Virus record (IMG/VR): IMGVR_UViG_3300035661_000011
Location: 90,506 to 154,505 of that record
From: a virus
Reading direction: 5' to 3' (one strand)
DNA length: 64,000 nt
In this document: piece after piece, positions 45,218 through 61,474 of the stretch
Position numbering within the stretch: the first letter of the stretch is position 1
How the letters are laid out: each line of letters starts with the position of its first letter
Program-made: the position numbers and the translations under genes
Notes under the pieces: model-generated
The model's input: only the letters and a program-made list of their open reading frames with translations
Told to the model about the DNA's origin: nothing
The model's database searches: none

Positions 45218-48200
45218 TTACATTGACATATCCACCATTGGCGTAACTGGTTTAGTTGTCGATTGATAAGGTGATTTTGGTTGAAGTGTATTACGCGCGG
45301 CTTCCGCCATAGCTTCACCAGGGGTAGCTGAATTCTTCACCATTAACTGTAATGTGTTATTAATAGACTCCAGGGTTTGTTGTTGCATAGTACGTTGTTT
45401 CTCAGCGGTAGTTGCTGTGGATTCAACTACAGAAGCTACATCTGGTCCAGATGGTGTAGCTGGTGTCATAATAGGTTGGGTTTTAATACCTAACAAATTA
45501 TTTTCTGCACTAGTTACATCAGAACTTATCATTGGTGATGCAGTTCCACCTATTGCTCCAACGTTACTAACTGGTGTAGTTGCGGCTGTTTCTGTCTGTG
45601 TAGACGGAGTGGTGTTAGCGGTAGATGTTGCAGACATAGCTCCAATCGGCTGTGCTCCACCAGAACTAGAATCATCCATAGAAAAAGATTTCATTGGTGA
45701 CGTTTGTGTTGTAGATGTGGCGGCCTGTTGTGAACTCGATGTGTCCGTTGGAGATTGTACGCTTGTCGTAGACGTTGTATCTGAAATAGATTTTTCATTA
45801 GGGACCACAAACCCGGCTGGTGCACTAGCTCCATTTAAACTAGATAACTGAAAATGCATACCATCTGGTTTTGACCAGTTGCCACCCCAATCGAAGCCTG
45901 AGTCTGTAAAACATGCCACTAACTCATGTGACATAGTGGGAGGTGCACCAAACCCATTAGTAGCTGCATTAATATCAAGTGCAATGCCCCAACTATGTAA
46001 CGACATGGTGTTTCCACCTCTTTTCTTACGAATACATAAGCACCCATCAAATGTCTTTATTTGGTTAGTTAGATTTCTACTAATGATATTTTTAAATGCC
46101 TGAGATAACGGTCCTACTAGGTCCTTATTACACTCTAAGCTATTTGGAAACGGTTTAATACGTAAGTCACTAGGTATATTCCAGTTAATAATATTGTTTT
46201 TAGCATTGGGGTCCCCATACTTTTTATCACAATCACTAGATGTTACACCCTTGCCATTACCACCTTTAACGTAATTACCTAAAGCGCTTACAAAGTTTTT
46301 ACTTCCATTAGCACCGTTATATGAATCGAACAACCCATTAGCTAGCTTTGCCCTATTCCTAGCAGCTTCCTCGATAGCAGCTGGGCGTTCATAAAGTTTC
46401 GATACAACTGCACCAGCGTCACTAGCTGTAGTGGTTTCAGATAATTTATCACCTGCTCCTTTTTCTGTATTCTTCAGTTCCCAGTCTACAAATCGAATTT
46501 GTTCTTCTAATGTAGACCCATGTATATCTTTGCCTATAAATTTCCTAAAGTTTTCTTGTCTGTCACTATGCCATTGTCCTATGCCGTAGGCGTTTCCTCC
46601 ATCACCTTTAGAATCTGGATTAAATTGACTTTCCTCTTTTAAATTTGCAGTAATACCAGCTGCTTGTTCCTTACTCCATCCCAACTTCATAAACGATGAA
46701 ATAACAAAGTCCGACTTCTCAGTATCAGCCCCGCCTCCAAACCCATCACCTACAATGTTTTTAACAGTGTCAATAACAGAACTTCCAGCGTTAGCTACAT
46801 TTTCAATCCCACGACTTGTTTTATCACGAAGCCAATCTATACCACTTCCAACTGAACTGGCGGCGTCAGATATAATACCTTTTGCTTTATCAATGATAGA
46901 TGGGTCTTTTGCTTTATCTTCAATATCTTTTTGTTTAGCCTCCTCAGCTAATTTGGCTGCTTGACCCTGTATATCTTTAGGGTCTTTAATATCTTCAGTA
47001 TTTCCTAATATATCGTATTTGATTTTACTAGGGTCTCTTAGTTGATTAGATAGCGTATCAGCTAACCCAATGTTATCTGTTAACGGAATGTTACTAAATG
47101 GTGATGACTGAACTGAAAATGGATCTAGTCCCATCTTTCGAGCATCTCCATCAAATTGGACTAAGTTAACAAATTCAGACTGTGCTTTAAGGTTGGGTAA
47201 CTCATCCACTTTATCTAATTTGCGTTTCCACTTTCTTGCTGCTAGAGTGTGTTTAACATACACCGGTACAAACCGTTTCATAAACCAGACACTAAAACTC
47301 TTTTTAGCATTAGTGTCAGCTGGGTTGTTATTAAACACTCTCCCATAGTCATTCCAGATGTCATCTATTGACGAACCTATGTTTGGCGGTTTGTTATCTG
47401 GAATCGAGATTATGTCTAACATTTCGCTTTCAAAATAACGCAGTGTTTTAACTGCTTTTTCATTGTCGATAGGTATACCGTATTGTAAATATCGCAATTT
47501 CTCTAATGATGATAATGTCGATTTATACTTAGCATTTACATACTTATCTTTCATGTTGTCGAAAGTGGACGGCATAGCAGACTCACCGATTAACTCAGCT
47601 TCTCTACCCTCAGCTTTCATACGTCTAGCGTGAACGTCATCAAACGCTGATTTCATCAACGCTAAACCTCCACCTAATGCTAACAGTGGGGCGGCTACAG
47701 CCATAGCACCTGCCCCACCAGCGGCACCTACACCTTCCACAGCTAAACCTGTTTCAGCAGCAGTTCCCCCAAACCCTAGGTAACCAAGTGCACCTTTTAT
47801 AGCGGCTAATCCACCAGCGCCATATCCGCCCCACTTAGCCATAGTGTCCATCGTACCACCACTTTCTTTTTCTTCATCCTCAGGTTCATCGTGTCCAGGT
47901 GGCATGACACTAGGTGCACCACCTGCAATTAGACCTGCACCTGCTGCTGAAGCTCCTACTCCAGTGGCAGCAGGTTTACCCTTACTACCACGTTCAGCCG
48001 GCAATATAAGTCCACCACCAGGCTTGTGTCGCATTTGGTCCATAGCTCCACCAGGTCTATTAGCTTCTCTGGTTTCACTATCTTCCACAGGCATAGCTTC
48101 TTTTAAAAAGTCGTAGATTTTAGTAAGTAACTCTTCAACCTTATTATCTTTGTTAGCCATCGTATCAGCTAACTTATCAATTACAGCAGAAGCAATACCC

Positions 48201-51200
48201 TGCACTGGAGTTTTTAATTTAGTTAACTTCTGCCAAACTCCACTACCTGTGATTCCCTTAATGCCCTTTCCAACTAGCCCAGTGATTTTACTCATAGCTA
48301 ACTTAGATAGTCTTTTAAGTTTAATCTTCTTACCAGTAATACAATCGTATAAACCATTCTTAACATCCAGGTCACTAAGTACCTCAATCATATCAGTTCC
48401 AACAATTTCTTTAACTGAACCAATAATTTGATAAATTGAATTAATTACCTTACCTGTATGGCCATCTACATAAAGTCCAAGTTTCATAGTCTCAGCTTTA
48501 ATTATTGGGTCACCACCTACATGTGTAGTTAAGTCTTTCTGAACATGGGTTTTAGTCCACATCTTTTTTAACCTTGCGGCAGGTGAAGAATCAGTTAACC
48601 ATTTTTTAGCTTTCATTGCTCTAGCTAAGTTTTCTTTAGTAAAAACTTTTTTAAGGTTTCCTTTAGTTAAAAGTTTTTTCAGTTTCATCGCTTGGTCTTT
48701 AACACTTTCAGAAAAGGGTTTTCCCTCTTCATCAACAAGACCATCTAAAAACTCCTTAGTGGTAATTACAGTTTCACCATACTTATTAACTACGGCACCT
48801 GTGATATCTTTAGCTGAAGTAATCACCGCCCCAGTAAGCTTATCAATATACTCACCATGCAACAACCCTTCTATCCCTAACGCTGGTACACCACGTTTAC
48901 CTTTAGTGTACACAGCTTTGAGCGATCTAAATAAACCACCTTTTTTATCTTTATTCATGTAGGTGTGTATACCTAAAGCACCTAATGCTAAAGTACCCGC
49001 TCCACCAGCATGCATAGCTAATGCTCCACCAGCTGCCATTAAAGCTAAATGACCATGCTTCTTTAAGAGTTTTTTCCCTCCATCCAAAACACCATGTTCT
49101 CCTAAGTAATCTTTAGCACGAGTAAATACACTAGATACCTTTCCACCAACCCATTTCGCACCAGGTAAAGCACCTTCTATTGCAGCAAACTTACCGCCAC
49201 TTAAAGCTAATCTAACAGCTTTCATTCCGTAGATACCAGCCAACTTAGCAACGCTAAAACCTTTCTTACTAAGGATAACTATTTGCTCACCAACACTTTT
49301 AAGTTGTGGTCCATCTGGAGTATGGTTATAAAGGAATTTACCAAACTTACCAGTTACACTTAAAGCACCCTTTCCTACTGTGAGTACACCTTTAGCACCT
49401 GACAATGCTTTATCAGCACCCCATTTAATAGCACCTTTAGCACTGTCAATTTTATCACGGTGTTTATCATAGAGTGGTTGAATAGGGCCAAATGCACTAC
49501 TATCACCCACACTTTCAATACTTTCCACACCGATAGCTATACGTTCTAAATACTCTTTTACCAAAGTAGTGTTATTCGTAATAGCCTCAATGATTCTATT
49601 CGAATCATCTTTAAAATCCACTTTTATTTCTGTAGGCATACCACCCGACATTCCGAGGGATGGACTATCATCGGAAGAAGAAAGCATACCCATTAACCGT
49701 TGTGTTAGACTATCGGATTCTACAGTTTTCTTTTTCTTACCTTTCTTACCACGATTCATGTTAGCAAGAACTTCTAATATCTCAGCCTTTGTAGGAGCTA
49801 CGTTTTCGTAGTCTTTATAAAAGTCCTCTCGGTTTTTACTTCTGAGTAATTTATCGGTCATTCCCCACTTGTATTCTGAGTTAGCACCTTTATCATTAAC
49901 CACACCTAAATCAAATAGATCTTCTGTTTCACCTAGGTTGTGTTTAGACCCAAGTACAGAATCCATATTAGTAAAACTACGACCTAAATTACCAAACGCA
50001 GTTGCAGCTTTTGTATGTCTATCCGTAGATTCTGGTGAGTCTATCACTTTAAATTTACGTCTACCAAAATCATCTAAATCTTCGGTTTCCTCAATACCAA
50101 ATGCTTTTCGAATCATTGGTGCAACGCGTTCAGCTATTTCAGCAGGTAACTCCATTTCATCGGAATATTTCTTAACAGAAAATGCAGAACTTTTATCTGC
50201 TTCTTTAGCCATAAATAAACCAAGGATATGTTTTTCTTCGTCAGTCAATGTGCCATCGTCTATATGGCCAACTAACTTACTAGTTTCATCTTTAATTGAA
50301 CCTGCATTTAACGTTTGCTTTAACTGGAGCTTTGTACGTTTAATTCTTTCTTTGTGGGTAATAAATCTTTCGGCATCTACACTATAAACAATTCTATCAG
50401 CCCTATCTGGGTTTCCTGTAAGTATGTTGTAAATGCTGTCTTGTGTTTGTAATTGTCTACTCATGTAACCGGGTATGATATCAATCAACGTTCTTCTTGA
50501 TAAAGCATCCCAACTGGTTTGTTCATGTGCTTCGTTGGCTAAGTCGTGTTTAATTATATCTGTTGTACCAGATCCTTCATCATTCATAATTCGATGTCCA
50601 ACACCACGCCACCCCTGACCATTACCCTCACGTAGATAATCCATTATCATAGCCGGCCACTGCTGTTGAATTCTGGCAGCTTTATTACCGAGACTAATAA
50701 CGCCATTATTAAAACCTGGTGCGTGATGGTCAATGGCGTTACGTACTTTTGTACCCCATATATTACCGGCTAATCTACCAGCGCCACCCATTAATTCCTC
50801 GCCTAAACCAGAACTCAACATAGTAGTGGTGTCGCCCATTCCAGAACTCATGCTACCAAATGTCTCAGCTGTATTTAACGCGTTACCCACACCACCTAAA
50901 AAATCTTGTATTTCAGACATTGCACCTTTACGAAATTTGTGCAAGAACGCACTAGCTCCACCGTGAAATTTCTCCTGAACTTTACCAATTAGTAAATGTT
51001 TAGTTCTATTTTGTAAAATTTCAGAGTCAGTTACTTTTACCTCATTTGGTAAACTTGTAAACTTAGCAATGGCACGAAGTTCTTCAATTGAAGCTTTAGC
51101 AGTTTCAACTGTAACATTTAATAATGACTTTAAAGAATAATGTTGTCTATACTGGAGCTCTAATGATTTTTTATGATATGCATTTAAAACGGAGTCTTGA

Positions 51201-51835
51201 TACCCAACTAAACGAGATAACAGTTCAGATTGACTACCTTGGTGTTGAGCTGAATATTCAAATTGTTTTTTACCAATTTCCCTATCGTAATTCGTATGTG
51301 CTAACTGCTCCCTATGTTGTGAGTCGTTTTGTGCAGCCACAGCTCCAAACACCCCAGAAATTGCACTAGCTACCTCTGAGTCTTCTTGGTTATCTGAGGA
51401 ACTTTCACTTCCGTAACCAGGGTCGTATCCGTCGTCACTTAATAATTTACTAGCTAATTTTTTAGGGAGTATAAAATTTGTGATAGGACTGAATGTACCT
51501 GCGACGGACTTTAATGAACGTATAACGGGATCTGCATCTTTCTTAAGTGATGAATAAATACTATCTAATTCACTCTTAACTCTACCGACTTCAGTAAATG
51601 CGTTTTCGTAGGACTTTGGTAGTGTCGCAAATAGTAATCCTTTAGCTAAATTACCACCACCTGCTTTTGAAATTGCACCTTGCCTAAGACCATTTTGTAT
51701 TTTCCAGGTAGCCGAACGATTAGCGTTTAGATTATCATCACCTAAGTCAAAACTATCCATGTCAAAATCGTCATCGTCCCCCCAATCACCACCAGAATCC
51801 ATTAAATCATTTTTATTTTTTGCCATTTTATTCAC
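45218..51835 (-). CDS. Giant tail-associated muralytic protein (phiKZ gp181-like) with phage-tail-lysozyme and M15 peptidase domains
   Basis: ~2200 aa, divergent from the RNAP beta' gene. AAGITANLKEES.FNP...GIGQW...R (tail lysozyme); SLHSWGIALDIN...WGGNW.KPDGMHFQ (M15 Zn peptidase). Confidence 0.85.
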   Translation of the reverse strand: MNKMAKNKNDLMDSGGDWGDDDDFDMDSFDLGDDNLNANRSATWKIQNGLRQGAISKAGGGNLAKGLLFATLPKSYENAFTEVGRVKSELDSIYSSLKKDADPVIRSLKSVAGTFSPITNFILPKKLASKLLSDDGYDPGYGSESSSDNQEDSEVASAISGVFGAVAAQNDSQHREQLAHTNYDREIGKKQFEYSAQHQGSQSELLSRLVGYQDSVLNAYHKKSLELQYRQHYSLKSLLNVTVETAKASIEELRAIAKFTSLPNEVKVTDSEILQNRTKHLLIGKVQEKFHGGASAFLHKFRKGAMSEIQDFLGGVGNALNTAETFGSMSSGMGDTTTMLSSGLGEELMGGAGRLAGNIWGTKVRNAIDHHAPGFNNGVISLGNKAARIQQQWPAMIMDYLREGNGQGWRGVGHRIMNDEGSGTTDIIKHDLANEAHEQTSWDALSRRTLIDIIPGYMSRQLQTQDSIYNILTGNPDRADRIVYSVDAERFITHKERIKRTKLQLKQTLNAGSIKDETSKLVGHIDDGTLTDEEKHILGLFMAKEADKSSAFSVKKYSDEMELPAEIAERVAPMIRKAFGIEETEDLDDFGRRKFKVIDSPESTDRHTKAATAFGNLGRSFTNMDSVLGSKHNLGETEDLFDLGVVNDKGANSEYKWGMTDKLLRSKNREDFYKDYENVAPTKAEILEVLANMNRGKKGKKKKTVESDSLTQRLMGMLSSSDDSPSLGMSGGMPTEIKVDFKDDSNRIIEAITNNTTLVKEYLERIAIGVESIESVGDSSAFGPIQPLYDKHRDKIDSAKGAIKWGADKALSGAKGVLTVGKGALSVTGKFGKFLYNHTPDGPQLKSVGEQIVILSKKGFSVAKLAGIYGMKAVRLALSGGKFAAIEGALPGAKWVGGKVSSVFTRAKDYLGEHGVLDGGKKLLKKHGHLALMAAGGALAMHAGGAGTLALGALGIHTYMNKDKKGGLFRSLKAVYTKGKRGVPALGIEGLLHGEYIDKLTGAVITSAKDITGAVVNKYGETVITTKEFLDGLVDEEGKPFSESVKDQAMKLKKLLTKGNLKKVFTKENLARAMKAKKWLTDSSPAARLKKMWTKTHVQKDLTTHVGGDPIIKAETMKLGLYVDGHTGKVINSIYQIIGSVKEIVGTDMIEVLSDLDVKNGLYDCITGKKIKLKRLSKLAMSKITGLVGKGIKGITGSGVWQKLTKLKTPVQGIASAVIDKLADTMANKDNKVEELLTKIYDFLKEAMPVEDSETREANRPGGAMDQMRHKPGGGLILPAERGSKGKPAATGVGASAAGAGLIAGGAPSVMPPGHDEPEDEEKESGGTMDTMAKWGGYGAGGLAAIKGALGYLGFGGTAAETGLAVEGVGAAGGAGAMAVAAPLLALGGGLALMKSAFDDVHARRMKAEGREAELIGESAMPSTFDNMKDKYVNAKYKSTLSSLEKLRYLQYGIPIDNEKAVKTLRYFESEMLDIISIPDNKPPNIGSSIDDIWNDYGRVFNNNPADTNAKKSFSVWFMKRFVPVYVKHTLAARKWKRKLDKVDELPNLKAQSEFVNLVQFDGDARKMGLDPFSVQSSPFSNIPLTDNIGLADTLSNQLRDPSKIKYDILGNTEDIKDPKDIQGQAAKLAEEAKQKDIEDKAKDPSIIDKAKGIISDAASSVGSGIDWLRDKTSRGIENVANAGSSVIDTVKNIVGDGFGGGADTEKSDFVISSFMKLGWSKEQAAGITANLKEESQFNPDSKGDGGNAYGIGQWHSDRQENFRKFIGKDIHGSTLEEQIRFVDWELKNTEKGAGDKLSETTTASDAGAVVSKLYERPAAIEEAARNRAKLANGLFDSYNGANGSKNFVSALGNYVKGGNGKGVTSSDCDKKYGDPNAKNNIINWNIPSDLRIKPFPNSLECNKDLVGPLSQAFKNIISRNLTNQIKTFDGCLCIRKKRGGNTMSLHSWGIALDINAATNGFGAPPTMSHELVACFTDSGFDWGGNWSKPDGMHFQLSSLNGASAPAGFVVPNEKSISDTTSTTSVQSPTDTSSSQQAATSTTQTSPMKSFSMDDSSSGGAQPIGAMSATSTANTTPSTQTETAATTPVSNVGAIGGTASPMISSDVTSAENNLLGIKTQPIMTPATPSGPDVASVVESTATTAEKQRTMQQQTLESINNTLQLMVKNSATPGEAMAEAARNTLQPKSPYQSTTKPVTPMVDMSM

Positions 51836-51850: not shown

Positions 51851-53308
51851 ATGAGTATTGATAAGTTACCATTTAATATATTTTTATTACCGAACGATAG
51901 ATCAGAAATAGCTGGTCAGTTACCAGTTCGTTCACTAGATATTTTCTCTAGCGACAATCAGTTCAATGTAGACGGATTGTATAGCTCAATTGCATTTGGT
52001 GAAGTCGGAACGTACGACCGTCAAAGTAGATGCGGCTATATAGATTTACGTACTGAAATTATGCATCCTAAAATCTTTAAGGAGTTAGTTAAACTAAAAG
52101 GTTTATATGGAGGTATTATCTCTGGTAGGACTTACGTTCTATGGGATGGTAAGTTGAAAGACTTTGTTCCATCCAATGTCATTGATGGTAAAACAGGCTA
52201 TGCGTTCTTTATGAGTCATTTCTTAGAAATGATGCACGCTACAAATGATTCTAACATTAGAGACTTACGAATCAAGCTAATGGAAAAGAGTAAAGACAAA
52301 TGTATGTATCAATTTTATCAAGTGATACCGGCCGCTTTACGTGATATTGAAATGAATTCCCAAGAACGTCCTAAAGAAGATGAAATCAACCAGATGTATA
52401 GGAAGATGATTCGCGCTAGTAATACAATATCTATACATAGTCGTAATGTAAATGACCCTATGTTAGATACAGCTAGATGGACTTTACAACAGGCTGCAAA
52501 CGATATCTACGATTACCTTGAAACTATCATGTCTGGTAAACACGGTTGGTTAATGGATAAGGTAGCATCTAGAAACGTATCTGGCGGTACGAGAAATGTA
52601 ATTACTGCTATGGATGCCGCCCCTAAGAAACTAGGTGCTAAAGATGCAATCACCGTTGACCACACTTTAGTTGGTTTACATCAATACCTTAAGGGCACTA
52701 TTGATTTAACTATCTACGACATCCGTAAAGGCCCTATGGCACCTGTTTTAGAGTTTATGCCCACTATGGCGTATGTAGTGGATGTAAAGTCCTTAAATCG
52801 CAAAACTATTACACCATCTAAATTCACAGTGGATAACTGGGGAACAGAAGAAGGAATTGAAAAATTAATAAATGGGTTTGCTAAAGATACCACTAGACAT
52901 AAACCAATTATGATAGATGGTAACTATGCTGCATTAGTGTATCGAGATGACAAACATGTTAAAGTGTTTTATGATATTTCAGATTTACCACACGGGTTTG
53001 ATAAAAGTAAAGTGTCTCCACTCACTTGGGCTGAAGCATTTTATTTATCAGTTTATAGAAGTGCTGAGGACGTTGGTAACTATGACACTCGATACCCAGT
53101 GGCTGACTTAGGTTCTATTTATGGAGCTAAGACGTATTTGGTCACTACAGTAAAAGCTGATAACTTGATTGAATTAGATGAACACTGGAAACCATTATTG
53201 GGAGATGTGCATCTATTTAGTTTCCCAATTAAATCTGAACCATTTGTTGACAGTTGTAGTATCCACCCTAATAAAGAAAATGGGGCAGGTGCTGACCACG
53301 ATGGAGAT
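51851..53308 (+). CDS. Virion RNA polymerase beta' catalytic subunit (phiKZ gp180-like), exon 1
   Basis: DGLYS..FG.VG...R, VIPAALRD, GK.G...K...R.V..GTRNVIT, RYPV and catalytic GADHDGD, after which homology stops abruptly. Confidence 0.9.
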
Positions 53309-53974
53309 TTTTACTATACATTAAAATGTGCGTAATTCATAGGTTTATAAGGTTGTTGTAATAGTTTGCCCTACGGTTTTAATATAATACGGTACACAAC
53401 GCATGTGCACCTTATTATAATTAACTTTGGGGGAGCGATGTACAAACAAATACCTAAAACAGATGGGTATTAGAACTGATGGAAGAAGACAAGAATTTAA
53501 ATCTATTAGAGATGCGGAAGTAAGAACTTTTTTAAATAGAAAACTTATTTCCAAATGCCTTAAGGGTTTACCAATTTCGTCAAGCTGGAATTTTAAATAC
53601 GCATACAGTGTATAATTGAGTCCTACACACAGGTAACTGTGTGATAGATTCTTCTTGAATTGCTGGAATAACTCGTTAGACTAATCAACTACAATAGCCG
53701 TGAAAACAGGCTATGAATGTCTGAAAATGATTAGGTAGAGTCAACCGTGGGACATAAGTCCCCTTTAGCAGCGAAGCTCCTAAGTCACTATGTGATATGG
53801 AGAACGTTCAACGATCATCCCTTATCCAGGGAGTAGAGCCTCTAGTTATAAAATGAGGAAGAAGTGGGAAGCTCCCTGATATATCAGGGTGAAGATATGA
53901 TCTGCTCCTACACGAGAGTGTAGGCGGGTGTCTTAGCACACCGGGTTAGCTTAACGCACTAACCGGACAGTAGG
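53309..53974 (+). mobile_element. Self-splicing group I intron (IA-like) in vRNAP beta'
   Basis: P AATTGCTGGAA (53658-68), Q TTAGCAGC (53765-72), R GTTCAACGATCA (53806-17) and S AAGATATGATCT (53892-903), with compensatory P7 GATCA/TGATC. P7.1/P7.2/P8/P9 hairpins present. The 5' exon ends in U and the intron ends in G. Splicing restores DHDGD-KMS (cf. DFDGD-QMA). Confidence 0.88.
53427..53615 (+). pseudogene. Remnant of an intron homing endonuclease (NUMOD1-like DNA-binding helix only)
   Basis: EFKSIRDAE...LNRKLISKCLKG.....WNFKY; no HNH, GIY-YIG or LAGLIDADG nuclease domain visible. Confidence 0.6.
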
Positions 53975-55750
53975 AAAATGAGTATTCAGTTTGTTTTATC
54001 TAAAGAAGCTAGAAAAGAAGTCCATGACTTTCATAATAGTAAAGAATCTTTATTAAATCAAACTGGGCAATTGCGATATGGTATTAATAATAAAATTTCT
54101 GAATTAGTAGTTGAGGCTATGACTATTGGATTTTATCCATCTAAAGCTGGCTTAGAGGATTTAAAAGACGATATAGATGAAGCTGCACATGAAGCTGCAA
54201 CGTCACACTTAAACGATTTACCAGAGCCAACGATTCCAATGTATGAAGCCGGTAACTATAAGAAAGGTCATATCGCTTTACAAGGTTTAAGAATATCTAT
54301 TGAAAACCCACAGGGGTCTACTCGAAAGGGGGTTGATAAAGACGGTAAAGAATGGTCTCGTGTAATGTCTCATCATTATGGGTATGTTAAAGGTTCGTTA
54401 GGGGCTGATGGTGACCACGTTGATGTATATGTTGGTGATACACCAGAGTCAGAGGATGTATTTGTTGTGAATCAGATATTTCCAGATACGCTTAAATTTG
54501 ATGAACATAAAGTAATGCTCGGATTTACTACTTTAGACTCTGCTGTTAAAGCGTATAAAAGTAACTTTACTAAAGACTGGAAAGGTTTAGGTTCAGTAAC
54601 TGAAATTACAATGGAGGAATTTAAAGAACATCTAAAGAAAGATAAAGTCACTAAACCTATTTTAAACGACGAAAGTGTTCATTATGGTACAGAAGATCTA
54701 AAGGTGTACAAACCACCAGTTGTACGTTCTGCTACAAAGAAAGATTTACCTAAGTTAATCGAGCTATGGAAAACCTTAGTGTCTGAAACTAACTATCTAC
54801 GAAACGACATTGTTGAATCAAATAAAGTTTCATTTGAAACTAATAAATTTAATGAAATGTCTAAAGAACCAAATAAGTATTTCGTATTGGATTTAGATGG
54901 TCTAATTGTGGGGGCTATACGGTGCACTGTTGTCAAATATAAGAGTGAAGCTAGCTTTGGGTTAGGTGTGCTTGCTAAACACCAAGGTAGAGGCTATGGG
55001 GCGTTATTAATTAACACTCTCATATCTTCATTAAAAGAGGATGGTATTAGTCTACTCTACCTATACGTAAATACAGAAAACGTTAGGGCTATTGGACTTT
55101 ATAACAAACTAGGGTTTAAACCAAATGGTAAACTATTAGAGATTGGTAAAGAAAAACTTTTAGAGATGGATATGCAATTAGGTTCAACTAAACCTAAGTC
55201 ATCTATCTATGCTAAATCACTAAAAGAAATTGATTTTCTATCATTAGTACGAGGTACTTTTAAGTTGGGGTTTGGAAATGAAAATATGATAGACCCATAT
55301 TTGAATGGTAGAAACGTTAACACTTTAGAGTTTAAACACGAACAACGACATCGCGTAGGAAATGTTTTTCAAGACACCTTTGATAACACTATGCGAGAAT
55401 TAGGTTGGTCTGAATCGAAGCCAGTTGATAAGTCTTGGGTGGGTTTTGATTTAGATGGTACATTAGCCGAATACGATGGGTGGAAAGGTATCGAGTTTAT
55501 TGGTAAACCGATTCCATCTATGGTAGATCGAGTTAAACAGTATTTAAGTGATGGTCAAAACGTAAAGATATTTACAGCCAGAGCCTGTGATGATGAAGCA
55601 ATTCCTTTTGTAAAAGAGTGGTTGACTGTTCATGGTCTTGGTGAGTTGGAGATAACCAATGTAAAAGATTTTCACATGGTTAAACTATATGACGATAGAT
55701 GTGTTCAAGTTGTAGAAAACACAGGTGAACTCGTTGGGTTAGGAAAATAA
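53975..55750 (+). CDS. vRNAP beta' exon 2 fused to inorganic-pyrophosphatase-like, GNAT acetyltransferase and HAD phosphatase domains
   Basis: ~55 aa RNAP tail. EAGNYKKGH..ISIENP.GS.R.G...HYGY...GADGDHVDV (InPase). GVL..HQGRGYG..L...NVRAIGLY.KLGF (GNAT). GFDLDGTLA..IFTAR..K..LYDDR (HAD). Confidence 0.85.
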   Translation, partial: KMSIQFVLSKEARKEVHDFHNSKESLLNQTGQLRYGINNKISELVVEAMTIGFYPSKAGLEDLKDDIDEAAHEAATSHLNDLPEPTIPMYEAGNYKKGHIALQGLRISIENPQGSTRKGVDKDGKEWSRVMSHHYGYVKGSLGADGDHVDVYVGDTPESEDVFVVNQIFPDTLKFDEHKVMLGFTTLDSAVKAYKSNFTKDWKGLGSVTEITMEEFKEHLKKDKVTKPILNDESVHYGTEDLKVYKPPVVRSATKKDLPKLIELWKTLVSETNYLRNDIVESNKVSFETNKFNEMSKEPNKYFVLDLDGLIVGAIRCTVVKYKSEASFGLGVLAKHQGRGYGALLINTLISSLKEDGISLLYLYVNTENVRAIGLYNKLGFKPNGKLLEIGKEKLLEMDMQLGSTKPKSSIYAKSLKEIDFLSLVRGTFKLGFGNENMIDPYLNGRNVNTLEFKHEQRHRVGNVFQDTFDNTMRELGWSESKPVDKSWVGFDLDGTLAEYDGWKGIEFIGKPIPSMVDRVKQYLSDGQNVKIFTARACDDEAIPFVKEWLTVHGLGELEITNVKDFHMVKLYDDRCVQVVENTGELVGLGK

Positions 55751-55878: not shown

Positions 55879-56577
55879 ATGCAAATTGACATATACAAAG
55901 ATGGGAAATTGCAATTTATTTTTCATGGTACAAATGAAGAGTGGTTGAACTTTTATAAAACACAACCGTTAGATGTGCCAGTCGTAGAAGCAGAATTGCA
56001 ATGTAATATGGTTGACAACGTTACATTTCCATTTAACGAATATCATCGATTTTATAACGCTTGCGTCATGGGGTATGCCCCAGACGTAGATAGTCCTGTT
56101 TGGCAGGCGCTTATATGTGGGCACAACAATGGTAGTTTGAGTAAGTTGCGTAGCTGGTGCAGTTCAAATGAGAGATTGACATTAACTTGCGATGGCGAGT
56201 ATTTTCATGTACAGGATCATGTAAATTTAGAATCTGTAAAGTTCAAATCGAAGGTTGCAGCCAGTGCGTATATACGAACAACTTTAGCCGCCCCATACAC
56301 TCTTGCTACCCAAGAATACTTTATGGGTAATGAGTTTAATGATTTAGTATGCCATAGTGAAAATAGTGCAGGGTGGGTATCTCCATCTGGAAACATTTGG
56401 GTTTGTTACGTAACCCAGTTTGCTGTAAGATATGAATTAGATAACTGGGGAGAAAAATATACTGTGTCGTTAATTGAATTATCCAAACTATTATCTGATT
56501 TAAACTTGGATTTAGGTATTTTTAAAGCAGCATATAAACTTCAGACTGAAAGACTGAATGGTAAAATTAACAATTAA
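55879..56577 (+). CDS. Hypothetical early protein
   Basis: GGAGG RBS. Confidence 0.7.
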   Translation: MQIDIYKDGKLQFIFHGTNEEWLNFYKTQPLDVPVVEAELQCNMVDNVTFPFNEYHRFYNACVMGYAPDVDSPVWQALICGHNNGSLSKLRSWCSSNERLTLTCDGEYFHVQDHVNLESVKFKSKVAASAYIRTTLAAPYTLATQEYFMGNEFNDLVCHSENSAGWVSPSGNIWVCYVTQFAVRYELDNWGEKYTVSLIELSKLLSDLNLDLGIFKAAYKLQTERLNGKINN

Positions 56578-56594: not shown

Positions 56595-57128
56595 ATGGCA
56601 CAAAATGAAAAAAGGTCAGCCGCATTAAATTTAAATAACTTGTATGTTTCTAAAAACCACCCACAGTATGACGCTACTGTAAAGCACATAACGGAAACCT
56701 TACAGGCTGTTATCAATACAAACCTACCATATAAAGAAGCTACATTTTCTACACTGAAGTCAAAGTTGACACAAGGTGATGAAAACGAAGTTAACTTTGC
56801 TGTGGTCGGCGGTGGTGTTTGTTTATTAGATTACATGAACTGCAAACATTTTACCGATAACACTCCAACTGATGACATTCCATTTGCATACGAATATCGC
56901 CTTGGCGGCAGTATCTCACCTACCATTTCAGTGTACAGTTATAGAAAAATCACTGGGGTTATGACACCTGGTATGGACGTGGTTATTTTACTATGCGAAT
57001 ACAAAGATGTTGTTGTCCCGGAGCAAGGCGTGTGTGAAGAAACAAGTGCCCAAATCGATGGCAGATCGTATAACTTTACGTCAAGAAGTGTAACTGTTGA
57101 AGAATTTAAAATCGAATGGCAGGTGTAA
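56595..57128 (+). CDS. Hypothetical early protein
   Basis: AAGG RBS; ORF track. Confidence 0.65.
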   Translation: MAQNEKRSAALNLNNLYVSKNHPQYDATVKHITETLQAVINTNLPYKEATFSTLKSKLTQGDENEVNFAVVGGGVCLLDYMNCKHFTDNTPTDDIPFAYEYRLGGSISPTISVYSYRKITGVMTPGMDVVILLCEYKDVVVPEQGVCEETSAQIDGRSYNFTSRSVTVEEFKIEWQV

Positions 57129-57508: not shown

Positions 57509-60500
57509 GTGAGTACCCTTATTCAACAAAAAGACTTTGACATTAGATTTGTGTCAAAACCAATTGTTAAAATTGGTAGTAGCTATAAAAAGATTATACC
57601 GAGTGTACTTTTTTTACCAGTGGATTCAGCTATACACTTTATTCCAGAAGTGAGTTCTGAGTTAGGGGTTGATAAAAGTTTCAGCTTACTACGAAACCAC
57701 TACACTGAATCAAAAATATTTCACGTTACCAAATTACACACCCACTTAGGTAACCCTAGTGCGACGACCGTTAATTTAAATACTCTAAAAATAGCCTACC
57801 ATAGAGGACACCTAGAAATAAAAGAAGTGTCTAACTTAGATAGATCATTAACATTGGAGAAATGTCCATTAGTTATAAACTATTCGATGTTAGGTAAGTT
57901 GTTTGAATATAAACAAAGCCCTTTAGCAGAATATAATAGTTGGAGTAACATACGTTCTACAATGTGGGATACAATCAATCAAATTGGAAGTAGACGTTCA
58001 CATTTTATTAAGTTTAGAATGCCAGTTCACCTCCCAACCAAAGCCGAACTAAATAAGTATTTACATGGGTTTACCACCAGTGGAATGTCTGAATTTTACA
58101 CTAAGGATGGGTTTGATTTACTTGAACTTTGGCAGATACTACATCCTTCTGTAGAAACGCCAGTGTCTAAAATAGATGAGTCTGTTCTAGAAAACACATA
58201 TTTAGTTTTCATTGAATCCGGTGTAACAATAATTTTATCACTCGGTGATTTGGTCGAATGGTCGGTTGAAGATTATGAAGCTACAATTACTACATTCCAT
58301 AAGTTCTTAGATAGTTTAATTGGTTTAAGAAATCCAGTTGACTTAAAAGAACTAGAAGAAGAAACCCACACTGATGCAACAGGGTTAGACCCAAATAGCA
58401 CAATTGTAAGATTGATAAATGAACACGGTGAAAACGGTAACTTATCGGCTAAGGAACAAACTGGTTTACTAAAGTTATCACAACGTTATAAATCTATACA
58501 AGACCCACACGGTAGTGGAAAAACACTCGACAAAATGGTGGTTACGGACGAAGATATAACTATCCGTAGAGACGTTTTAATAAACGATTCGGCTGGGTCA
58601 ATTCCAGATAGCATGAAGTATTCTTCATTAGACTCAATGGAAAAAGACTATCTTAAGAACATAATGCCAAAAGACATTGTGCAAATGGTTTTGAAATTAC
58701 AGGACGGTGGAATTATCATTAAGGATATGAAAGCCAAGAAAAAAATAGATGCTGCTTCAAAGACAATTGAATACACTGTATCCTCAGTTCCAATTGCAGG
58801 TGAATCGGCACCATTTAAGCTCACTATGCCGATTGTTGAAGAAGATGGTACATTTACCTTAGGTGGAACTAAATATCGCTTAGATAAGCAAAAAGGAGAG
58901 ATGCCTATAATTAAGACTAAACCAAACGTAGTAGCTTTAGGCACTTACTATGGTAAGCTGTTTATTACTCGCACTGAAGCATCGTCTTTAAATATCTCTA
59001 AATGGATTAATAAAGTCCTTTTGAATAATGATAACCGTAATAACCCAGATGGTAATGTTACAGATATACTACACGGTACTTCTATAATTAAAGACAAAGT
59101 TCCACGTATGTATTCTGCGATTGCAGAATTATATCGGGGGTTTACTGTCTCTAACCAATACGAGTTTACTTTTTCGTATTCAAATATAAGTAAAAGTTTT
59201 ACAGAGTTAGAAATTTCAGCTATGGGTGAATTAAAACTCATACCTTGTGGAAGGGATATTAAATCTAAACAACCATTAGGTATGGATGACATCGGTAAAG
59301 TGTATGTAGTTATTCCCAAAACTGATAAAAATATGTCAGACCACAATGTCATATATCTAGGCACAGTGCCAAATTTGATTAGTGAAGATTTAGGTAACGG
59401 TCCCATTGAATACACTGAAATCGAAATGTTCTCTAAAAGACTTCCAATCATACTTGCGTTTTTTATACAATATGGTATTGAAAAAACATTTAGACTTTTA
59501 CACGTTACTTACAGACAAGAACCAACTAACATCCGTATACCATATGACCAAAATGAATTTCTGTTTAAATGTAAAGACACAGTGTTTGTAATTGATATAA
59601 GTAACCCGTATAGAAAGCTGATAGTTGGTGGTTTGCACTCAATACGCGATATCTCTAATCGCTACAAAAGTGTAGACTATAACCACAAACAAGCATATGC
59701 GTCAATTTTCACATCGTTAGGTTTATCAATCCATCACATTCGTGAGGTTGGGTTAATGTGGGATATGTTCATAGACCCAATCTCAGAAGCTATTTTAAAG
59801 ATTGAAGGACAACCTACTGAATTTAAAGAGCTATTATTACACGCTAGTGACTTACTAATCGACGACCATATGCCAGATACCAAGTCTGTTAGATATAAGG
59901 GGTATGAGCGTATAGCTGGGATGCTTTATAGAGAGTTAGTTTTAGCTATGAGAACCCACCGTGCTAAGGGCTCTAGTTCGGGTACATCATTCACCATTAA
60001 CCCTAGAGCATTATTATTGAGTATTCAACAAGACCAAACAATAATGTTGGTTGAAGAATCTAACCCTATACATAACTTAAAGGAGAAAGAATCATTTACA
60101 CATACTGGTTCTGGTGGTCGTAGTGGTGACACTATGATGAAAGATGACCGAGGGTTTAAACGTGGGGATTTTGGTATAGACTCTATGGACACTAAAGACT
60201 CTGGAAAAGTGGGAGTGTGTGCATCCTTGACAGCAGACCCTTTGTTTGAAAACAACAGAGGTATGACTAAATATACTGAGTTTAATGATGCTAACCCAGT
60301 GAATAGTTTAAGTACATCGTTTTTGATGAGTCCAGGTGCATCACATGACGATGGAAAACGCCAATGTTTTATTTCTATACAAAATAGTCACACTGTGTCG
60401 TGTGACAATTATGAGGCGTTACCATATAGAACTGGGTATGAGGAAATTATAGGTGCTAGAGCTGATGAGTTATTTGCAGTTAGTGCATTGGATGATGGGG

Positions 60501-61474
60501 TGGTGTCTAATATTACCAAAGATGTATTAACCGTAATGTACACTGGTACTAAAAAACACAACTATGAGTTTGGTATTAAACACGGTGTTGTTAGTGGGAC
60601 AATGGTTGCACATAACCGTGTTACAGACATGGTAGTTGGTCAGAAATTTAAAAAGTCTGATATATTAATTTTTGATGCGGGGTTCTTTCAAAGAAGTGAA
60701 TTAAATCCGAACAACGTGGTCTATAAACATGGTGTACTGGCTAATGTAGCTTTAGTAGATAATAGTTTAACCAATGAAGATGGAGCTGTGTTTTCTAGTG
60801 AGTTTGCTAAGAAAATGTACACCACTCAGACTAAAGCACATTACATAGTTGTAGACTTCGATAGCGTTGTTCACAACTTAGTTCAAGTTGGTATGGAGGT
60901 GGAACCTGAAACCATCATGTGTACTCTTGAGGGGTTTGTTAGTGAAGACTTACATACGCGTGACCCTAGTTCAATAAAGGCACTTACTGCCATTGGTGCT
61001 AACAACCCTAAAGCAAAAGTCTATGGTAAAATAACGTTCATGGACGTTGTATACTACGGTAAGCTAGAGGATATGCACGAGAGTTTACAAGTCATTGCTA
61101 CAAAATACGATAACCTACGTGGTAAGAAAGTTACCACGTTAGATTCATCAGATGCAAAGACTGGTAAAATAAATGAATCTATTCGTGTAGGGGGAGTTAA
61201 GTTAGAACCTAACCAAATGGTAATACGCATTTTTATTGATTCTTTATTAGGTATGGAAGGTGGTGACAAATACGTAGTTGGCCATCAGCTTAAGGGCACA
61301 GTTAGTAGTGTAGCAACTGACCCAATGACGTGTGAAGATGGTAGAGTGATTGACCTTAAGTTTGCGCATTTATCTGTAAGTAACCGTATTGTTGAAGCTA
61401 TAAAGATATGTGGTATGATGAATGAAATTCTAAGGGTCGGTACACTTGAAATGATAAAGATTTATAAATCGTAA
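57509..61474 (+). CDS. Virion RNA polymerase beta N-terminal/main subunit (phiKZ gp178-like)
   Basis: P.VEEDGTF.LGG..Y, T.TG.GGRS, T.DSGKVG, HDDGKR..F..IQ.SH, EDG.V.S, GDK.V.GHQLKGTV. Confidence 0.9.
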   Translation: MSTLIQQKDFDIRFVSKPIVKIGSSYKKIIPSVLFLPVDSAIHFIPEVSSELGVDKSFSLLRNHYTESKIFHVTKLHTHLGNPSATTVNLNTLKIAYHRGHLEIKEVSNLDRSLTLEKCPLVINYSMLGKLFEYKQSPLAEYNSWSNIRSTMWDTINQIGSRRSHFIKFRMPVHLPTKAELNKYLHGFTTSGMSEFYTKDGFDLLELWQILHPSVETPVSKIDESVLENTYLVFIESGVTIILSLGDLVEWSVEDYEATITTFHKFLDSLIGLRNPVDLKELEEETHTDATGLDPNSTIVRLINEHGENGNLSAKEQTGLLKLSQRYKSIQDPHGSGKTLDKMVVTDEDITIRRDVLINDSAGSIPDSMKYSSLDSMEKDYLKNIMPKDIVQMVLKLQDGGIIIKDMKAKKKIDAASKTIEYTVSSVPIAGESAPFKLTMPIVEEDGTFTLGGTKYRLDKQKGEMPIIKTKPNVVALGTYYGKLFITRTEASSLNISKWINKVLLNNDNRNNPDGNVTDILHGTSIIKDKVPRMYSAIAELYRGFTVSNQYEFTFSYSNISKSFTELEISAMGELKLIPCGRDIKSKQPLGMDDIGKVYVVIPKTDKNMSDHNVIYLGTVPNLISEDLGNGPIEYTEIEMFSKRLPIILAFFIQYGIEKTFRLLHVTYRQEPTNIRIPYDQNEFLFKCKDTVFVIDISNPYRKLIVGGLHSIRDISNRYKSVDYNHKQAYASIFTSLGLSIHHIREVGLMWDMFIDPISEAILKIEGQPTEFKELLLHASDLLIDDHMPDTKSVRYKGYERIAGMLYRELVLAMRTHRAKGSSSGTSFTINPRALLLSIQQDQTIMLVEESNPIHNLKEKESFTHTGSGGRSGDTMMKDDRGFKRGDFGIDSMDTKDSGKVGVCASLTADPLFENNRGMTKYTEFNDANPVNSLSTSFLMSPGASHDDGKRQCFISIQNSHTVSCDNYEALPYRTGYEEIIGARADELFAVSALDDGVVSNITKDVLTVMYTGTKKHNYEFGIKHGVVSGTMVAHNRVTDMVVGQKFKKSDILIFDAGFFQRSELNPNNVVYKHGVLANVALVDNSLTNEDGAVFSSEFAKKMYTTQTKAHYIVVDFDSVVHNLVQVGMEVEPETIMCTLEGFVSEDLHTRDPSSIKALTAIGANNPKAKVYGKITFMDVVYYGKLEDMHESLQVIATKYDNLRGKKVTTLDSSDAKTGKINESIRVGGVKLEPNQMVIRIFIDSLLGMEGGDKYVVGHQLKGTVSSVATDPMTCEDGRVIDLKFAHLSVSNRIVEAIKICGMMNEILRVGTLEMIKIYKS

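What the first reader, a model, noticed from the sequence alone, without database searches (positions are those of the whole stretch)
53309..53974. Group I intron inserted immediately after the catalytic DxDGD of the virion RNAP
Seen: intact P/Q/R/S core with covarying P7 (GATCA/TGATC instead of GACTA/TAGTC). The U|...G boundaries restore GADHDGD-KMSIQF. Unspliced RNA stops 8 codons after the motif (TAA ending at 53335), so both an active vRNAP and the fused cargo depend on splicing. An AGGA-AA-ATG at the 3' splice site might also allow independent exon-2 translation. Introns in jumbo-phage RNAP genes have precedent, so the novelty is in the site and its coupling to the cargo. I could not identify a clean P1/IGS pairing, so the exact 5' site is inferred from protein homology.
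Basis: partly seen in the sequence, partly recalled or inferred. Interest (0 to 1): 0.7.

Follow-up and report, generated by a model that had tools for sequence, protein, structure and literature searches.

The report
Group I intron in phage virion-RNAP gene
A giant phiKZ-like phage has a real self-splicing-type (group I) intron cutting its virion RNA polymerase gene right after the catalytic aspartates; this is a new example of something known in phiKZ itself, at a spot many related phages also use.

Summary
Confirmed. Window 53309-53974 (666 nt) is a group I intron in the phiKZ gp180-type virion RNAP beta'-N gene.

- **Rfam:** RF00028 matches 53604-53924 at 43.1 bits, E=1.6e-9. This is below the gathering score of 50 and appears only in a local search.
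- **Core:** about 60% identical to the phiKZ gp179 intron. All core helices are intact, and P7 is the compensated GAUCA/UGAUC.
- **Junction:** uninterrupted relatives read ...DxDGD-K-(V/L)xxxFV.SKEAV.EV..., exactly what joining U53308 to A53975 gives. The unspliced frame stops after 8 codons.
a short guide, G53620-U-C, lies 310 nt downstream, 2 nt before P2. A decayed endonuclease gene fills the P1 loop. The position is supported by comparison with relatives; the pairing itself is weak.

The novelty claim does not hold.
- phiKZ's known gp180 intron sits 12 nt upstream.
- Metagenomic relatives have introns, and two have an intein, at this exact site. Some carry two introns separated by 6- or 12-nt micro-exons.
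- The same genome has a near-identical paralogous intron in its DNA polymerase gene.
- The coupling to the cargo follows simply from a C-terminal fusion that intron-less relatives also have (with GNAT only).
- The AGGA-N2-ATG is a poor ribosome-binding site for this phage.

Splicing itself is untested. Verdict: new member of a known kind.

The parts
51851..53308 (+). Exon 1: virion RNAP beta'-N-like subunit (phiKZ gp180 homolog), 486 codons ending …GADHDGD
   Evidence: phrog_2986 E=8e-162, profile positions 3-489. 35% identical to the intron-less KTN4 gp180 homolog up to its DGD, E=4e-93. Synteny with a gp181-like 2205-aa ORF and a gp178-like 1321-aa ORF.
53309..53974 (+). Group I intron, 666 nt. 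U53308 is the last exon base and G53974 is omega-G.
   Evidence: Rfam RF00028 43.1 bits, E=1.6e-9. Homology to the phiKZ gp179 intron and others. Junction fixed by uninterrupted homologs.
53309..53335 (+). Read-through tail FYYTLKCA plus TAA. It stops ribosomes 8 codons into the intron.
   Evidence: Translation.
53427..53615 (+). 62-codon ORF in the P1 loop, probably the remnant of an HNH homing endonuclease (only a NUMOD-like DNA-binding tail). A short ATG frame at 53438-53473 lies upstream in another frame.
   Evidence: PF22083 I-HmuI_NUMOD-like E=9e-4, 19 bits, below the cut-off of 27. phrog_20162 HNH endonuclease E=0.004. Full-length HNH ORFs occupy the same position in phiKZ (gp179) and L093. 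No BLAST similarity to those ORFs.
53618..53623 (+). Internal guide sequence. G53620·U53308, U53621-A53307, C53622-G53306, plus A53619-U53309 and G53618·U53310. C53623 faces A53305 as a mismatch.
   Evidence: Direct reading plus script. GUCC lies 0-2 nt before P2 in most family members. Weak on its own: 13 of 449 exon-1 U positions pair as well.
53626..53643 (+). P2 hairpin CACACAG-GUAA-CUGUGUG
   Evidence: A 6-8 bp stem with different sequence occupies this place in every relative, with a GUAA loop in four of the seven (compensatory changes).
53651..53871 (+). P3 (53651-56 with 53866-71), enclosing P4 (53661-65/53766-70), P5, P6, the 5' strand of P7 and P7.1/P7.2
   Evidence: P3 is CUUCUU/GGGAAG here, CUCUUU/GGAGAG in phiKZ, UCACCU/AGGUGA in L093 and UGUACU/AGUACA in the DNA-polymerase paralog.
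53813..53902 (+). P7 (G53813-A53817 with U53898-C53902), which includes the conserved G-C and A-U pairs. P8 (53874-79/53884-89) lies between the strands.
53907..53974 (+). P9 (GAGA loop), P9.1, P9.2 and the tail GGACAGUAGG ending in omega-G
   Evidence: Several family members have a similar 10-nt tail after P9.2 ending in G. The phiKZ 3' site is fixed by the intron-less KTN4 allele.
53975..55750 (+). Exon 2. The first ~55 codons finish the RNAP subunit (KMSIQFVLSKEARKEV…). Then come InPase (PF18823), GNAT and a HAD-like phosphatase.
   Evidence: phrog_2986 positions 490-538. 40% identical to P0124 residues 490-542, E=3e-12. Pfam and PHROG domains.

Best explanation
A genuine group I intron, IA2-like with extra hairpins between P7 and P3', interrupts the gene for the beta'-N-like subunit of the virion-packaged RNA polymerase. 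It sits between the last Asp codon of the Mg-binding DxDGD motif (GAU, ending at 53308) and the next codon (AAA, starting at 53975).

**Inferred mechanism (standard group I chemistry):**
- The 5' exon end GAU pairs with the guide G53620-U-C, with U53308·G53620 as the wobble pair. This closes a P1 whose loop holds about 310 nt of decayed homing-endonuclease gene.
- An external guanosine cleaves after U53308.
- Omega-G53974 then docks in P7, and the exons are ligated to GGAGAU|AAAAUG.
- The product is one 1077-codon frame: the RNAP subunit followed by InPase-GNAT-HAD.
- The in-frame TAA 8 codons into the intron keeps ribosomes out of the ribozyme core.

**Inferred origin:**
- The endonuclease gene is degenerate, so the intron is probably no longer mobile.
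- It belongs to one intron family. In related jumbo phages this family occupies three adjacent positions, each after a GAU Asp codon of the same motif.
- In this genome the family also sits in the DNA polymerase gene.

**Status of the evidence:**
- Shown: the ribozyme core, the boundaries by homology, and the family relations.
- Inferred: the P1 assignment, actual splicing, and loss of mobility.
For: **Core**
- Rfam Intron_gpI matches the full model (1-253) at 53604-53924, E=1.6e-9.
- A seven-intron alignment gives P2, P4-P9.1 with 36 of 59 pairs showing compensatory changes. P7 is GAUCA/UGAUC here.
- The core is 60% identical to the phiKZ gp179 intron, which itself scores 92 bits.
- A same-genome paralog is 82% identical, E=1e-93.

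**Junction**
- phrog_2986 runs 3-489 on exon 1 and 490-538 on exon 2.
- P0123, P0124 and L089 are uninterrupted and read DGD-K-LSLTFV / K-VNAVFVLSKEAVDEV.
- Exon 2 aligns from its first residue to P0124 K490, E=3e-12.
- With U at -1, G at the 3' end and the frame as constraints, this is the only junction that leaves one residue between DGD and M.

**3' site**
- Several family members share a similar 10-nt tail after P9.2 that ends in G.
- The phiKZ site is fixed by the intron-less KTN4 allele GGGGCGGAT|TTCGAC.

**IGS**
- GUCC lies 0-2 nt before P2 in ours, phiKZ, L093, L136, L138-1, L125, L126, L153, L166 and the DNA-polymerase paralog.
- Guides that match their own exons: GUCG with exon CGAU in L138-2, GUUUC with GAAAU in the KTN4 gp72 intron, and GGUCC with UGGAU|C in the DNA-polymerase paralog.

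**Endonuclease layout:**
Against: - There is no RNA or protein evidence of splicing.
- The Rfam score (43.1) is below the curated cut-off (50). There is no hit at gathering threshold or in the whole-window E-value search.
- P1 has only 3 exon-side and 2 intron-side pairs, with an A·C mismatch at -4. Thirteen of 449 U positions in exon 1 pair equally well with the guide. The guide therefore does not by itself specify the site.
- No convincing P10 with the 3' exon was found.
- The endonuclease-remnant calls are sub-threshold, and the remnant shows no BLAST similarity to gp179, gp72 or the L093 ORF.
Confidence: 0.85

Rival explanations
1. The ribozyme is decayed and no longer splices efficiently. 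The gene is then effectively split. A truncated beta'-N ends DGD-FYYTLKCA, and a separate 590-aa protein starts at ATG 53978 and carries the last ~55 residues of the RNAP fold plus the cargo. The two associate non-covalently or not at all.
For: - The endonuclease gene has decayed.
- P1 is minimal with a mismatch.
- The Rfam score is sub-threshold.
- An ATG lies 3 nt after the 3' splice site with AGGA upstream.
- Gene callers in public data do call the 590-aa ORF on its own (P0003).
- phiKZ-type RNAPs are naturally made of split subunits.
Against: - All core helices are intact and keep pairing through compensatory changes. The G-C and A-U pairs of P7, U-1 and omega-G are all kept.
- The exon frames match exactly.
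- AGGA is only 2 nt from the ATG, whereas this phage's genes have it 7-9 nt away.
- A break directly after the Mg-binding aspartates, with 8 junk residues, has no counterpart among 150 cluster representatives other than the intron- or intein-bearing ones.
Confidence: 0.08
2. The intron splices, but at other boundaries. One example is a 5' site after U53311, giving DGD-F-KMSIQF. Another is a cryptic site.
For: - A run of five U's (53308-53312) follows the motif.
- The guide pairing is too short to discriminate between them.
Against: - Uninterrupted homologs have exactly one residue between DGD and the hydrophobic stretch, and in the closest relatives it is K.
- The profile positions are contiguous, 489 to 490.
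- The conserved guide pairs GAU, not UUU.
- Other site-2 introns (L093, L136) also cut directly after GAU.
Confidence: 0.04
3. This is not an intron but an intergenic spacer that resembles group I motifs by chance, lying between two independent genes.
For: No Rfam hit at the gathering threshold.
Against: - E=1.6e-9 to RF00028.
- E=1e-93 to a paralog that splits the DNA polymerase gene.
- Clear homology to the phiKZ intron.
- One protein family runs continuously across the gap.
Confidence: 0.01

Closest known systems
phiKZ gp180 intron carrying gp179 (HNH). Introns in phiKZ RNAP subunit genes gp55 and gp180 and endonucleases gp56, gp72 and gp179 are cited in PMC11512511 from Mesyanzhinov 2002 and Ceyssens 2014.
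   Same: - Same gene, the virion RNAP beta'-N.
- Same catalytic motif.
- Same intron family: about 60% core identity.
- Same layout: 5' site, endonuclease ORF in the P1 loop, GUCC guide, P2, then the core.
   Different: - The phiKZ intron lies 12 nt (4 codons) upstream, at GAD|FDGD. This is fixed by the intron-less KTN4 allele.
- It has an intact 357-aa HNH ORF.
- Its P7 is the canonical GACUA/UAGUC.
- It scores 92 bits in Rfam against 43 here.
- phiKZ exon 2 encodes only ~55 residues and no cargo.
PhiPA3 gp210 intron in gp211/209 (Birkholz et al., Science 2024, PMC11620839)
   Same: A group I intron with an HNH endonuclease in a Chimalliviridae virion RNAP gene, inserted directly after conserved catalytic aspartates.
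   Different: - It is in the other subunit, the gp178-type RpoB-like one.
- Its endonuclease is active, nicks DNA, and gives a competitive advantage.
- Here the endonuclease gene is decayed.
Site-2 introns in uncultivated jumbo phages (IMG/VR loci L093/L094 and L136)
   Same: - Exactly the same insertion point, DGD|.
- Same intron family, with Rfam scores of 60.6-61.6 bits.
- L093 has a 414-aa HNH ORF in the P1 loop.
   Different: - Only 49-52% core identity to ours.
- They have a large P5 extension. They are therefore a separate sub-lineage, and the site was probably colonised independently.
- They carry no cargo in exon 2.
T4 td / nrdB / sunY and SPO1 DNA-polymerase introns (phage subgroup IA2; recalled from the literature, not tested here)
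   Same: Phage protein-coding host gene. P7.1/P7.2-type insert between P7 and P3'. An in-frame stop soon after the 5' splice site. Endonuclease ORFs looped out of the core.
   Different: - In T4 the ORFs sit in P6 or P9 loops, and P1 is 5-6 bp.
- Here the ORF remnant is in the P1 loop, and the exon side of P1 is only 3 bp.
LAGLIDADG inteins in gp180 homologs (P0257, P0267)
   Same: Same insertion point, immediately after DGD.
   Different: A protein-splicing element, not an RNA-splicing one.

Membership tests
Group I intron (Rfam RF00028) | Conserved P3-P8 core with P/Q/R/S elements, scored by the family covariance model | tested here: inconclusive
   Full-length model match at 43.1 bits, E=1.6e-9. 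This is below the curated gathering score of 50, and there is no hit at gathering threshold. Homologs in the same alignment pass: phiKZ 92 bits and L093 61.6 bits.
Group I intron (Rfam RF00028) | Helices supported by covariation (P2, P3, P4, P6, P7, P8, P9) | tested here: met
   RNAalifold on 7 family members: 36 of 59 pairs show double changes that keep the pair. P7 columns 264/360 and 265/359 covary. P3 variants were read directly.
Group I intron (Rfam RF00028) | U at the last exon position forming a G·U wobble with an internal guide (P1) | tested here: inconclusive
   U53308·G53620 with 2 more exon-side and 2 intron-side pairs. The position of the guide is conserved in the family. The pairing is not distinctive: 13 of 449 U positions do as well.
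Group I intron (Rfam RF00028) | Terminal guanosine (omega-G) and a guanosine-binding G-C pair in P7 | tested here: met
   G53974 ends the intron. G53813-C53902 and A53814-U53901 are invariant in all 7 aligned introns.
Group I intron (Rfam RF00028) | GTP-dependent self-splicing that ligates the exons | not testable with these tools
   Needs in vitro transcription and splicing, or RT-PCR.
Mobile (homing) group I intron | An intact intron-encoded homing endonuclease | tested here: not met
   Only a 62-codon ORF with sub-threshold NUMOD-like and HNH-family hits. No HNH catalytic domain. Relatives have ORFs of 273-414 aa.
phiKZ gp180-type virion RNAP beta'-N subunit (phrog_2986) | Full-length match to the family profile, including DxDGD and the ~50-residue tail | tested here: met
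   Exon 1 covers profile positions 3-489 (E=8e-162) and exon 2 covers 490-538. Synteny with gp181-like and gp178-like genes.
Subgroup IA2 | P7.1/P7.2 between P7 and P3', and other subgroup signatures | tested here: inconclusive
   A 45-nt insert with two possible hairpins (53818-32 and 53839-59) lies between P7 and P3'. No subgroup-specific model was available.

The most novel reading that the evidence does not exclude
This intron belongs to a family whose guide is reduced to about three bases (GUC). It can therefore accept any …GAU| exon end. That would let family members settle after each of the three GAU-encoded aspartates of the RNAP DxDGD motif. Sites 1, 3 and 2 lie 6 and 12 nt apart, and are sometimes occupied two at a time, leaving 6- or 12-nt micro-exons. 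It would also let members jump between genes of one genome: the DNA polymerase site …GGAU| matches the guide perfectly, while the virion RNAP site …AGAU| matches imperfectly. The copy studied here would then be a recent intragenomic transposition or recombinant, not a product of classical homing.
Probability: 0.3. Interest if true: 0.6.

Novelty: new member of a known kind. Interest (0 to 1): 0.4.

Why it matters
**For annotation**
- The two ORFs 51851-53335 and 53978-55750 should be joined into one 1077-codon gene.
- phiKZ gp180 itself has an unannotated ~55-codon second exon.
- Truncated 'RNA polymerase beta subunit' calls of about 485-495 aa in jumbo phages usually mark an intron at one of three adjacent positions.

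**For biology**
- The catalytic DxDGD of the virion RNAP is a crowded landing pad for selfish elements. Three intron sites and one intein site fall within 12 nt.
- An intron endonuclease at a similar spot in the other subunit has been shown to mediate phage-phage competition (PMC11620839).
- The case studied here is an end stage of that cycle: the endonuclease is lost, the ribozyme is retained, and an essential late gene plus its injected cargo depend on RNA self-splicing.

Tried and rejected
- **Rfam:** no hit at gathering threshold or in the whole-window E-value search. The intron appears only in a local search. The genome search with RF00028 on the phage's own genome found the DNA-polymerase paralog but not this copy.
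- **MFE folding** of the whole intron was uninformative for P1.
- **Megablast of the locus** against phage genomes found nothing.
- **Single-protein scans of viral contigs** with exon 1 or P0004 found nothing.
- **The one metagenome scan,** run for the contig of P0005, found only an unrelated InPase protein.
The genomic context of P0004, P0005, P0123, P0124 and the site-2 truncated clusters could therefore not be seen.
- **Endonuclease remnant:** tblastn of the exon-2 N-terminus and of the remnant against phages found nothing. The remnant shows no similarity to gp179, gp72, the L093 HNH ORF or the 126-aa ORF of the paralog.
- **Uninterrupted RNAP+InPase fusion:** a search among proteins longer than 1035 aa gave only ordinary polyvalent proteins.
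- **P10:** no convincing pairing with the 3' exon was found.
- **Family-specific covariance model:** not built, because a model of about 350 positions exceeds the calibration limit.
- **Coordinate correction:** an early hand count placed the guide G at 53619. The script check corrected it to 53620.

Full report
**Setting**

The window is bases 90506-154505 of a 154.5-kb IMG/VR viral contig, estimated 54% complete. Its gene content is that of a phiKZ-like jumbo phage.
- A 2205-aa ORF on the minus strand (45218-51835) corresponds to phiKZ gp181.
- It is followed on the plus strand by ORF 51851-53335, then ORF 53978-55750, then two small ORFs.
- Next comes a 1321-aa ORF (57509-61474) that matches the gp178-type RNAP subunit, phrog_3148, E=0.
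- Exon 1 is 35% identical (E=4e-93) to the intron-less gp180 homolog of phage KTN4. It matches phrog_2986 at E=8e-162.

**Observation**

- The frame from 51851 ends …GGT GCT GAC CAC GAT GGA GAT (GADHDGD) at 53308.
- It then reads FYYTLKCA and stops at TAA 53333-35.
- G53974 precedes AAA ATG AGT ATT CAG…, which stays open to 55750.
- Rfam's group I model aligns end to end (model positions 1-253) to 53604-53924 at 43.1 bits, E=1.6e-9, when 901 nt are searched.
- That score is below the curated threshold of 50. Nothing is reported at gathering threshold or when the whole window is searched with the tighter filters.

Helices verified by script:

| Helix | Coordinates | Note |
|---|---|---|
| P2 | 53626-32 / 53637-43 | GUAA loop |
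| P3 | 53651-56 / 53866-71 | |
| P4 | 53661-65 / 53766-70 | |
| P7 | 53813-17 / 53898-902 | GAUCA/UGAUC |
| P8 | 53874-79 / 53884-89 | |
| P9 | 53907-13 / 53918-24 | GAGA loop |
| P9.1 | 53927-31 / 53938-42 | |
| P9.2 | 53944-49 / 53959-64 | |
| tail | 53965-74 | GGACAGUAGG, ending in omega-G53974 |

**Homology of the ribozyme**

- blastn finds the phiKZ-group introns at E=2e-13.
- In phiKZ the match lies between gp180 and gp178, just after gp179, an HNH protein. That intron scores 92 bits in Rfam.
- I aligned seven introns: ours, phiKZ gp179, the gp72 intron of the non-virion RNAP (from KTN4), L093, L136 and the two introns of L138.
- RNAalifold recovers P2, P4, P5, P6, P7, P8, P9 and P9.1. 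In 36 of 59 pairs, at least one sequence keeps the pair through changes on both sides.
- P7 is GACUA/UAGUC in four introns, GACCA/UGGUC in two and GAUCA/UGAUC in ours. The G-C and A-U pairs at its start never vary.
- P3, which forms a pseudoknot with P7, also covaries: CUUCUU/GGGAAG in ours, CUCUUU/GGAGAG in phiKZ, UCACCU/AGGUGA in L093.

**Exon junction**

- The PHROG profile of the subunit is matched at positions 3-489 by exon 1 and at 490-538 by residues 2-50 of exon 2.
- A full HMMER search of 1.8 billion representatives found uninterrupted relatives.
- The two closest, P0123 and P0124 (51-52% identity), read …GADVDGD-K-LSLTFVTYEEAVKEV… and …NADYDGD-K-VNAVFVLSKEAVDEVKKYHHTK…LRYG.
- Exon 2 (K-MSIQFVLSKEARKEVHDFHNSK…LRYG) aligns from its very first residue to K490 of P0124, E=3e-12.
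- The constraints are a U before the 5' site, a G before the 3' site, and the reading frame. Under these, 53308|53975 is the only junction that leaves the single residue seen in homologs.
- Several relatives have a similar 10-nt tail after P9.2 ending in G. For phiKZ the site is fixed by the intron-less KTN4 allele GGGGCGGAT|TTCGACGGGGACAC.

**P1 and the internal guide**

- In phiKZ, L093 and the KTN4 gp72 intron, an HNH ORF of 273-414 aa lies between the 5' splice site and a short guide that sits 0-3 nt before P2.
- The motif GUCC-(0-2 nt)-P2 recurs in ours (G53620), phiKZ, L093, L136, L138 intron 1, L125, L126, L153 and L166.
- Three guides match their own exons better:
  - GUCG with exon …CGAU in L138 intron 2.
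  - GUUUC with …GAAAU in the gp72 intron.
  - GGUCC with …UGGAU|C in the DNA-polymerase paralog.
- In ours, P1 would be G53306-C53622, A53307-U53621, U53308·G53620, U53309-A53619 and U53310·G53618, with A53305 opposite C53623.
- This is short. A script shows that 13 of 449 U positions in exon 1 pair at least as well with this guide.
- The assignment therefore rests on conserved position, not on the strength of pairing.
- I found no convincing P10 with the 3' exon.
- GUCC is also complementary to GGAC (53965-68), 7 nt before omega-G. The same holds in several relatives. I cannot say whether this helps dock the 3' site or competes with P1.

**Endonuclease remnant**

The ~310-nt P1 loop contains a 62-codon ORF (53427-53615).
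- It hits PF22083 (I-HmuI NUMOD-like, E=9e-4) and phrog_20162 (HNH endonuclease, E=0.004). Both hits are weak.
- Upstream, in another frame, is a short ATG-YKQIPKTDGY-stop. It resembles the N-termini of phage HNH endonucleases. This is my own reading and was not tested.
- There is no HNH catalytic domain.
- There is no BLAST similarity to gp179, gp72 or the L093 ORF.
- An internally deleted homing endonuclease gene is the likeliest reading, but the evidence is thin.

**How unusual is the site?**

It is not unusual.

| Dataset | Site 1 (GxD\|xDGD, phiKZ type) | Site 2 (DGD\|, ours) | Site 3 (GADFD\|GD) |
|---|---|---|---|
| 150 cluster representatives | 14 end here | 4 besides ours end here (P0167, P0172, P0195, P0252); 2 carry a LAGLIDADG intein here (P0257, P0267) | – |
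| 80 IMG/VR loci | about 15 interrupted | L093/L094, L136 | L135, L138 intron 2 |

- Rfam confirms group I introns at gathering threshold in L093, L136, L138 (two), L090 (two), L134, L125, L153 and L166.
- L090 has introns at both site 1 and site 2. They are separated by a 12-nt micro-exon, TACGACGGCGAT, encoding YDGD.
- L138 has introns at sites 1 and 3, with a 6-nt micro-exon TTCGAT.
- Every occupied site follows a GAU Asp codon, which fits the shared GUC guide.
- By core identity, ours is nearer to L138 intron 2 (61%), phiKZ (60%) and the gp72 intron (60%) than to the other site-2 introns (49-52%). Site 2 was therefore probably colonised more than once.

The literature already records introns in phiKZ gp55 and gp180 and in 201phi2-1 gp273/274 (PMC11512511). 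It also records the PhiPA3 gp210 intron in the other virion RNAP subunit (PMC11620839). I found no paper describing the after-DGD site.

**A paralog in the same genome**

- RF00028 also hits G000:C1:52870-53180 on the minus strand, at 45.4 bits.
- That intron splits the DNA polymerase gene, phrog_3011: profile positions 85-462 and 486-569.
- Its core is 82% identical to ours over 321 nt, E=1e-93. Long blocks are 100% identical, covering P4-P6, J6/7, P7 with the same GAUCA/UGAUC, P7.1/7.2, P9 and P9.1.
- P2, P3 (UGUACU/AGUACA) and P8 are completely different but internally compensated. The P1-loop inserts are unrelated.
- Its guide matches its exon perfectly, whereas ours does not.
- This mosaic pattern suggests recombination or gene conversion between intron copies. 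It may mean that the RNAP copy derives from an intron adapted to a …GGAU| site.

**The cargo and the 'coupling'**

- After the ~55 residues that finish the RNAP subunit, exon 2 encodes three domains:
  - InPase (PF18823, E=2e-55).
  - GNAT (E=2.5e-15).
  - A HAD-like phosphatase (DLDGT motif; PHROG hits at about 1e-9).
- The nearest intron-less relatives already have C-terminal extensions. P0123 carries a Pfam-confirmed GNAT. P0124 and L089 carry an extension of about 200 residues that aligns with it. L097 carries a 175-residue extension that was not characterised.
- P0004 and P0005, which are InPase(+HAD)+GNAT proteins, begin inside the RNAP tail.
- The fusion is thus a trait of this clade, independent of the intron. 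The cargo depends on splicing only because it lies downstream.
- No uninterrupted RNAP+InPase protein was found among longer proteins. This is weak negative evidence.
- This cargo is the subject of a separate note of the scan (e1-5880658).

**Independent translation of exon 2**

- Genes of this phage have AGGA/GAGG/GGAG about 7-9 nt before the ATG. At 53978 the AGGA is 2 nt away.
- In the spliced mRNA, the junction happens to create GGAG-AUAAA-AUG, a better geometry. Internal initiation on spliced RNA therefore cannot be excluded. In relatives the corresponding codons are GGC GAU, so this looks accidental.

**Verdict**

It is a new member of a known kind: a degenerate-endonuclease copy of the phiKZ-type RNAP intron family, at one of three neighbouring hot-spot positions. 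Splicing itself remains to be shown.

Noticed in passing
G000:C1:~52830-53560, minus strand (outside the window; L169 ~1451-2186, minus strand): A second group I intron in the same phage splits the DNA polymerase gene. Its core is a near-identical paralog of the RNAP intron, with long 100%-identical blocks and the same GAUCA/UGAUC P7. Its P2, P3 and P8 are wholly different but compensated. Its P1-loop ORF (126 aa, no family hit) is unrelated. Its guide GGUCC matches its exon UGGAU|C perfectly.
   Followed up: partly
L090 6930-6941; L138 5973-5978: Related jumbo phages carry two group I introns in the same DxDGD motif. L090 has them at sites 1 and 2, with a 12-nt micro-exon TACGACGGCGAT (YDGD). 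L138 has them at sites 1 and 3, with a 6-nt micro-exon TTCGAT (FD).
   Followed up: partly
Proteins P0257 (1039 aa) and P0267 (1033 aa): gp180 homologs with a LAGLIDADG intein inserted at exactly the same point as this intron (…DGD|intein|TVSF…). RNA-level and protein-level selfish elements therefore share one site.
   Followed up: partly
window 53620-53623 and 53965-53968: The conserved guide GUCC is perfectly complementary to GGAC, 7 nt before omega-G. The same holds in the DNA-polymerase paralog (GUCCC/GGGAC), L138 intron 1 and L090 intron 1. The CC of GUCC is conserved whatever the exon base at -4. It could be a P10 surrogate or a competitor of P1. Unexplained.
   Followed up: no
window 53975-55750; P0123, P0124, L089, L097, P0004, P0005: C-terminal extensions on the virion RNAP beta'-N subunit recur in this clade. 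P0123 adds a GNAT domain; P0124 and L089 add a similar ~200-residue extension. L097 adds an uncharacterised 175-residue extension. The phage studied here adds InPase+GNAT+HAD. P0004 has the same three domains in a different order and starts inside the RNAP tail.
   Followed up: partly
L001 4301-4486 (phiKZ NC_004629, reverse complement): phiKZ gp180 has an unannotated second exon of ~61 codons (FDGDTVSFNAVYSEEA…). It lies between the gp179 intron and gp178. The intron-less KTN4 allele encodes the full 550-aa protein.
   Followed up: yes
window 53303-53308 + 53975-53980: Splicing would create GGAG-AUAAA-AUG, a better Shine-Dalgarno geometry for Met-488 than exists in the unspliced RNA. Also, exon 1 and the exon-2 ORF both begin ATGAGTATT. 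Both are probably coincidences.
   Followed up: no
window 55879-56577 and 56595-57128: Two ORFs (232 and 177 aa) with no PHROG hit lie between the gp180-like and gp178-like genes. These genes are adjacent in phiKZ, KTN4 and Vibrio phage sm033.
   Followed up: no
window 53290-53308; L093, L136: In phages with only site 2 occupied (ours, L093, L136), the first Asp of the motif is GAC, not GAU. This removes the U needed for a site-1 intron. Site-1-occupied alleles all have GAU.
   Followed up: no
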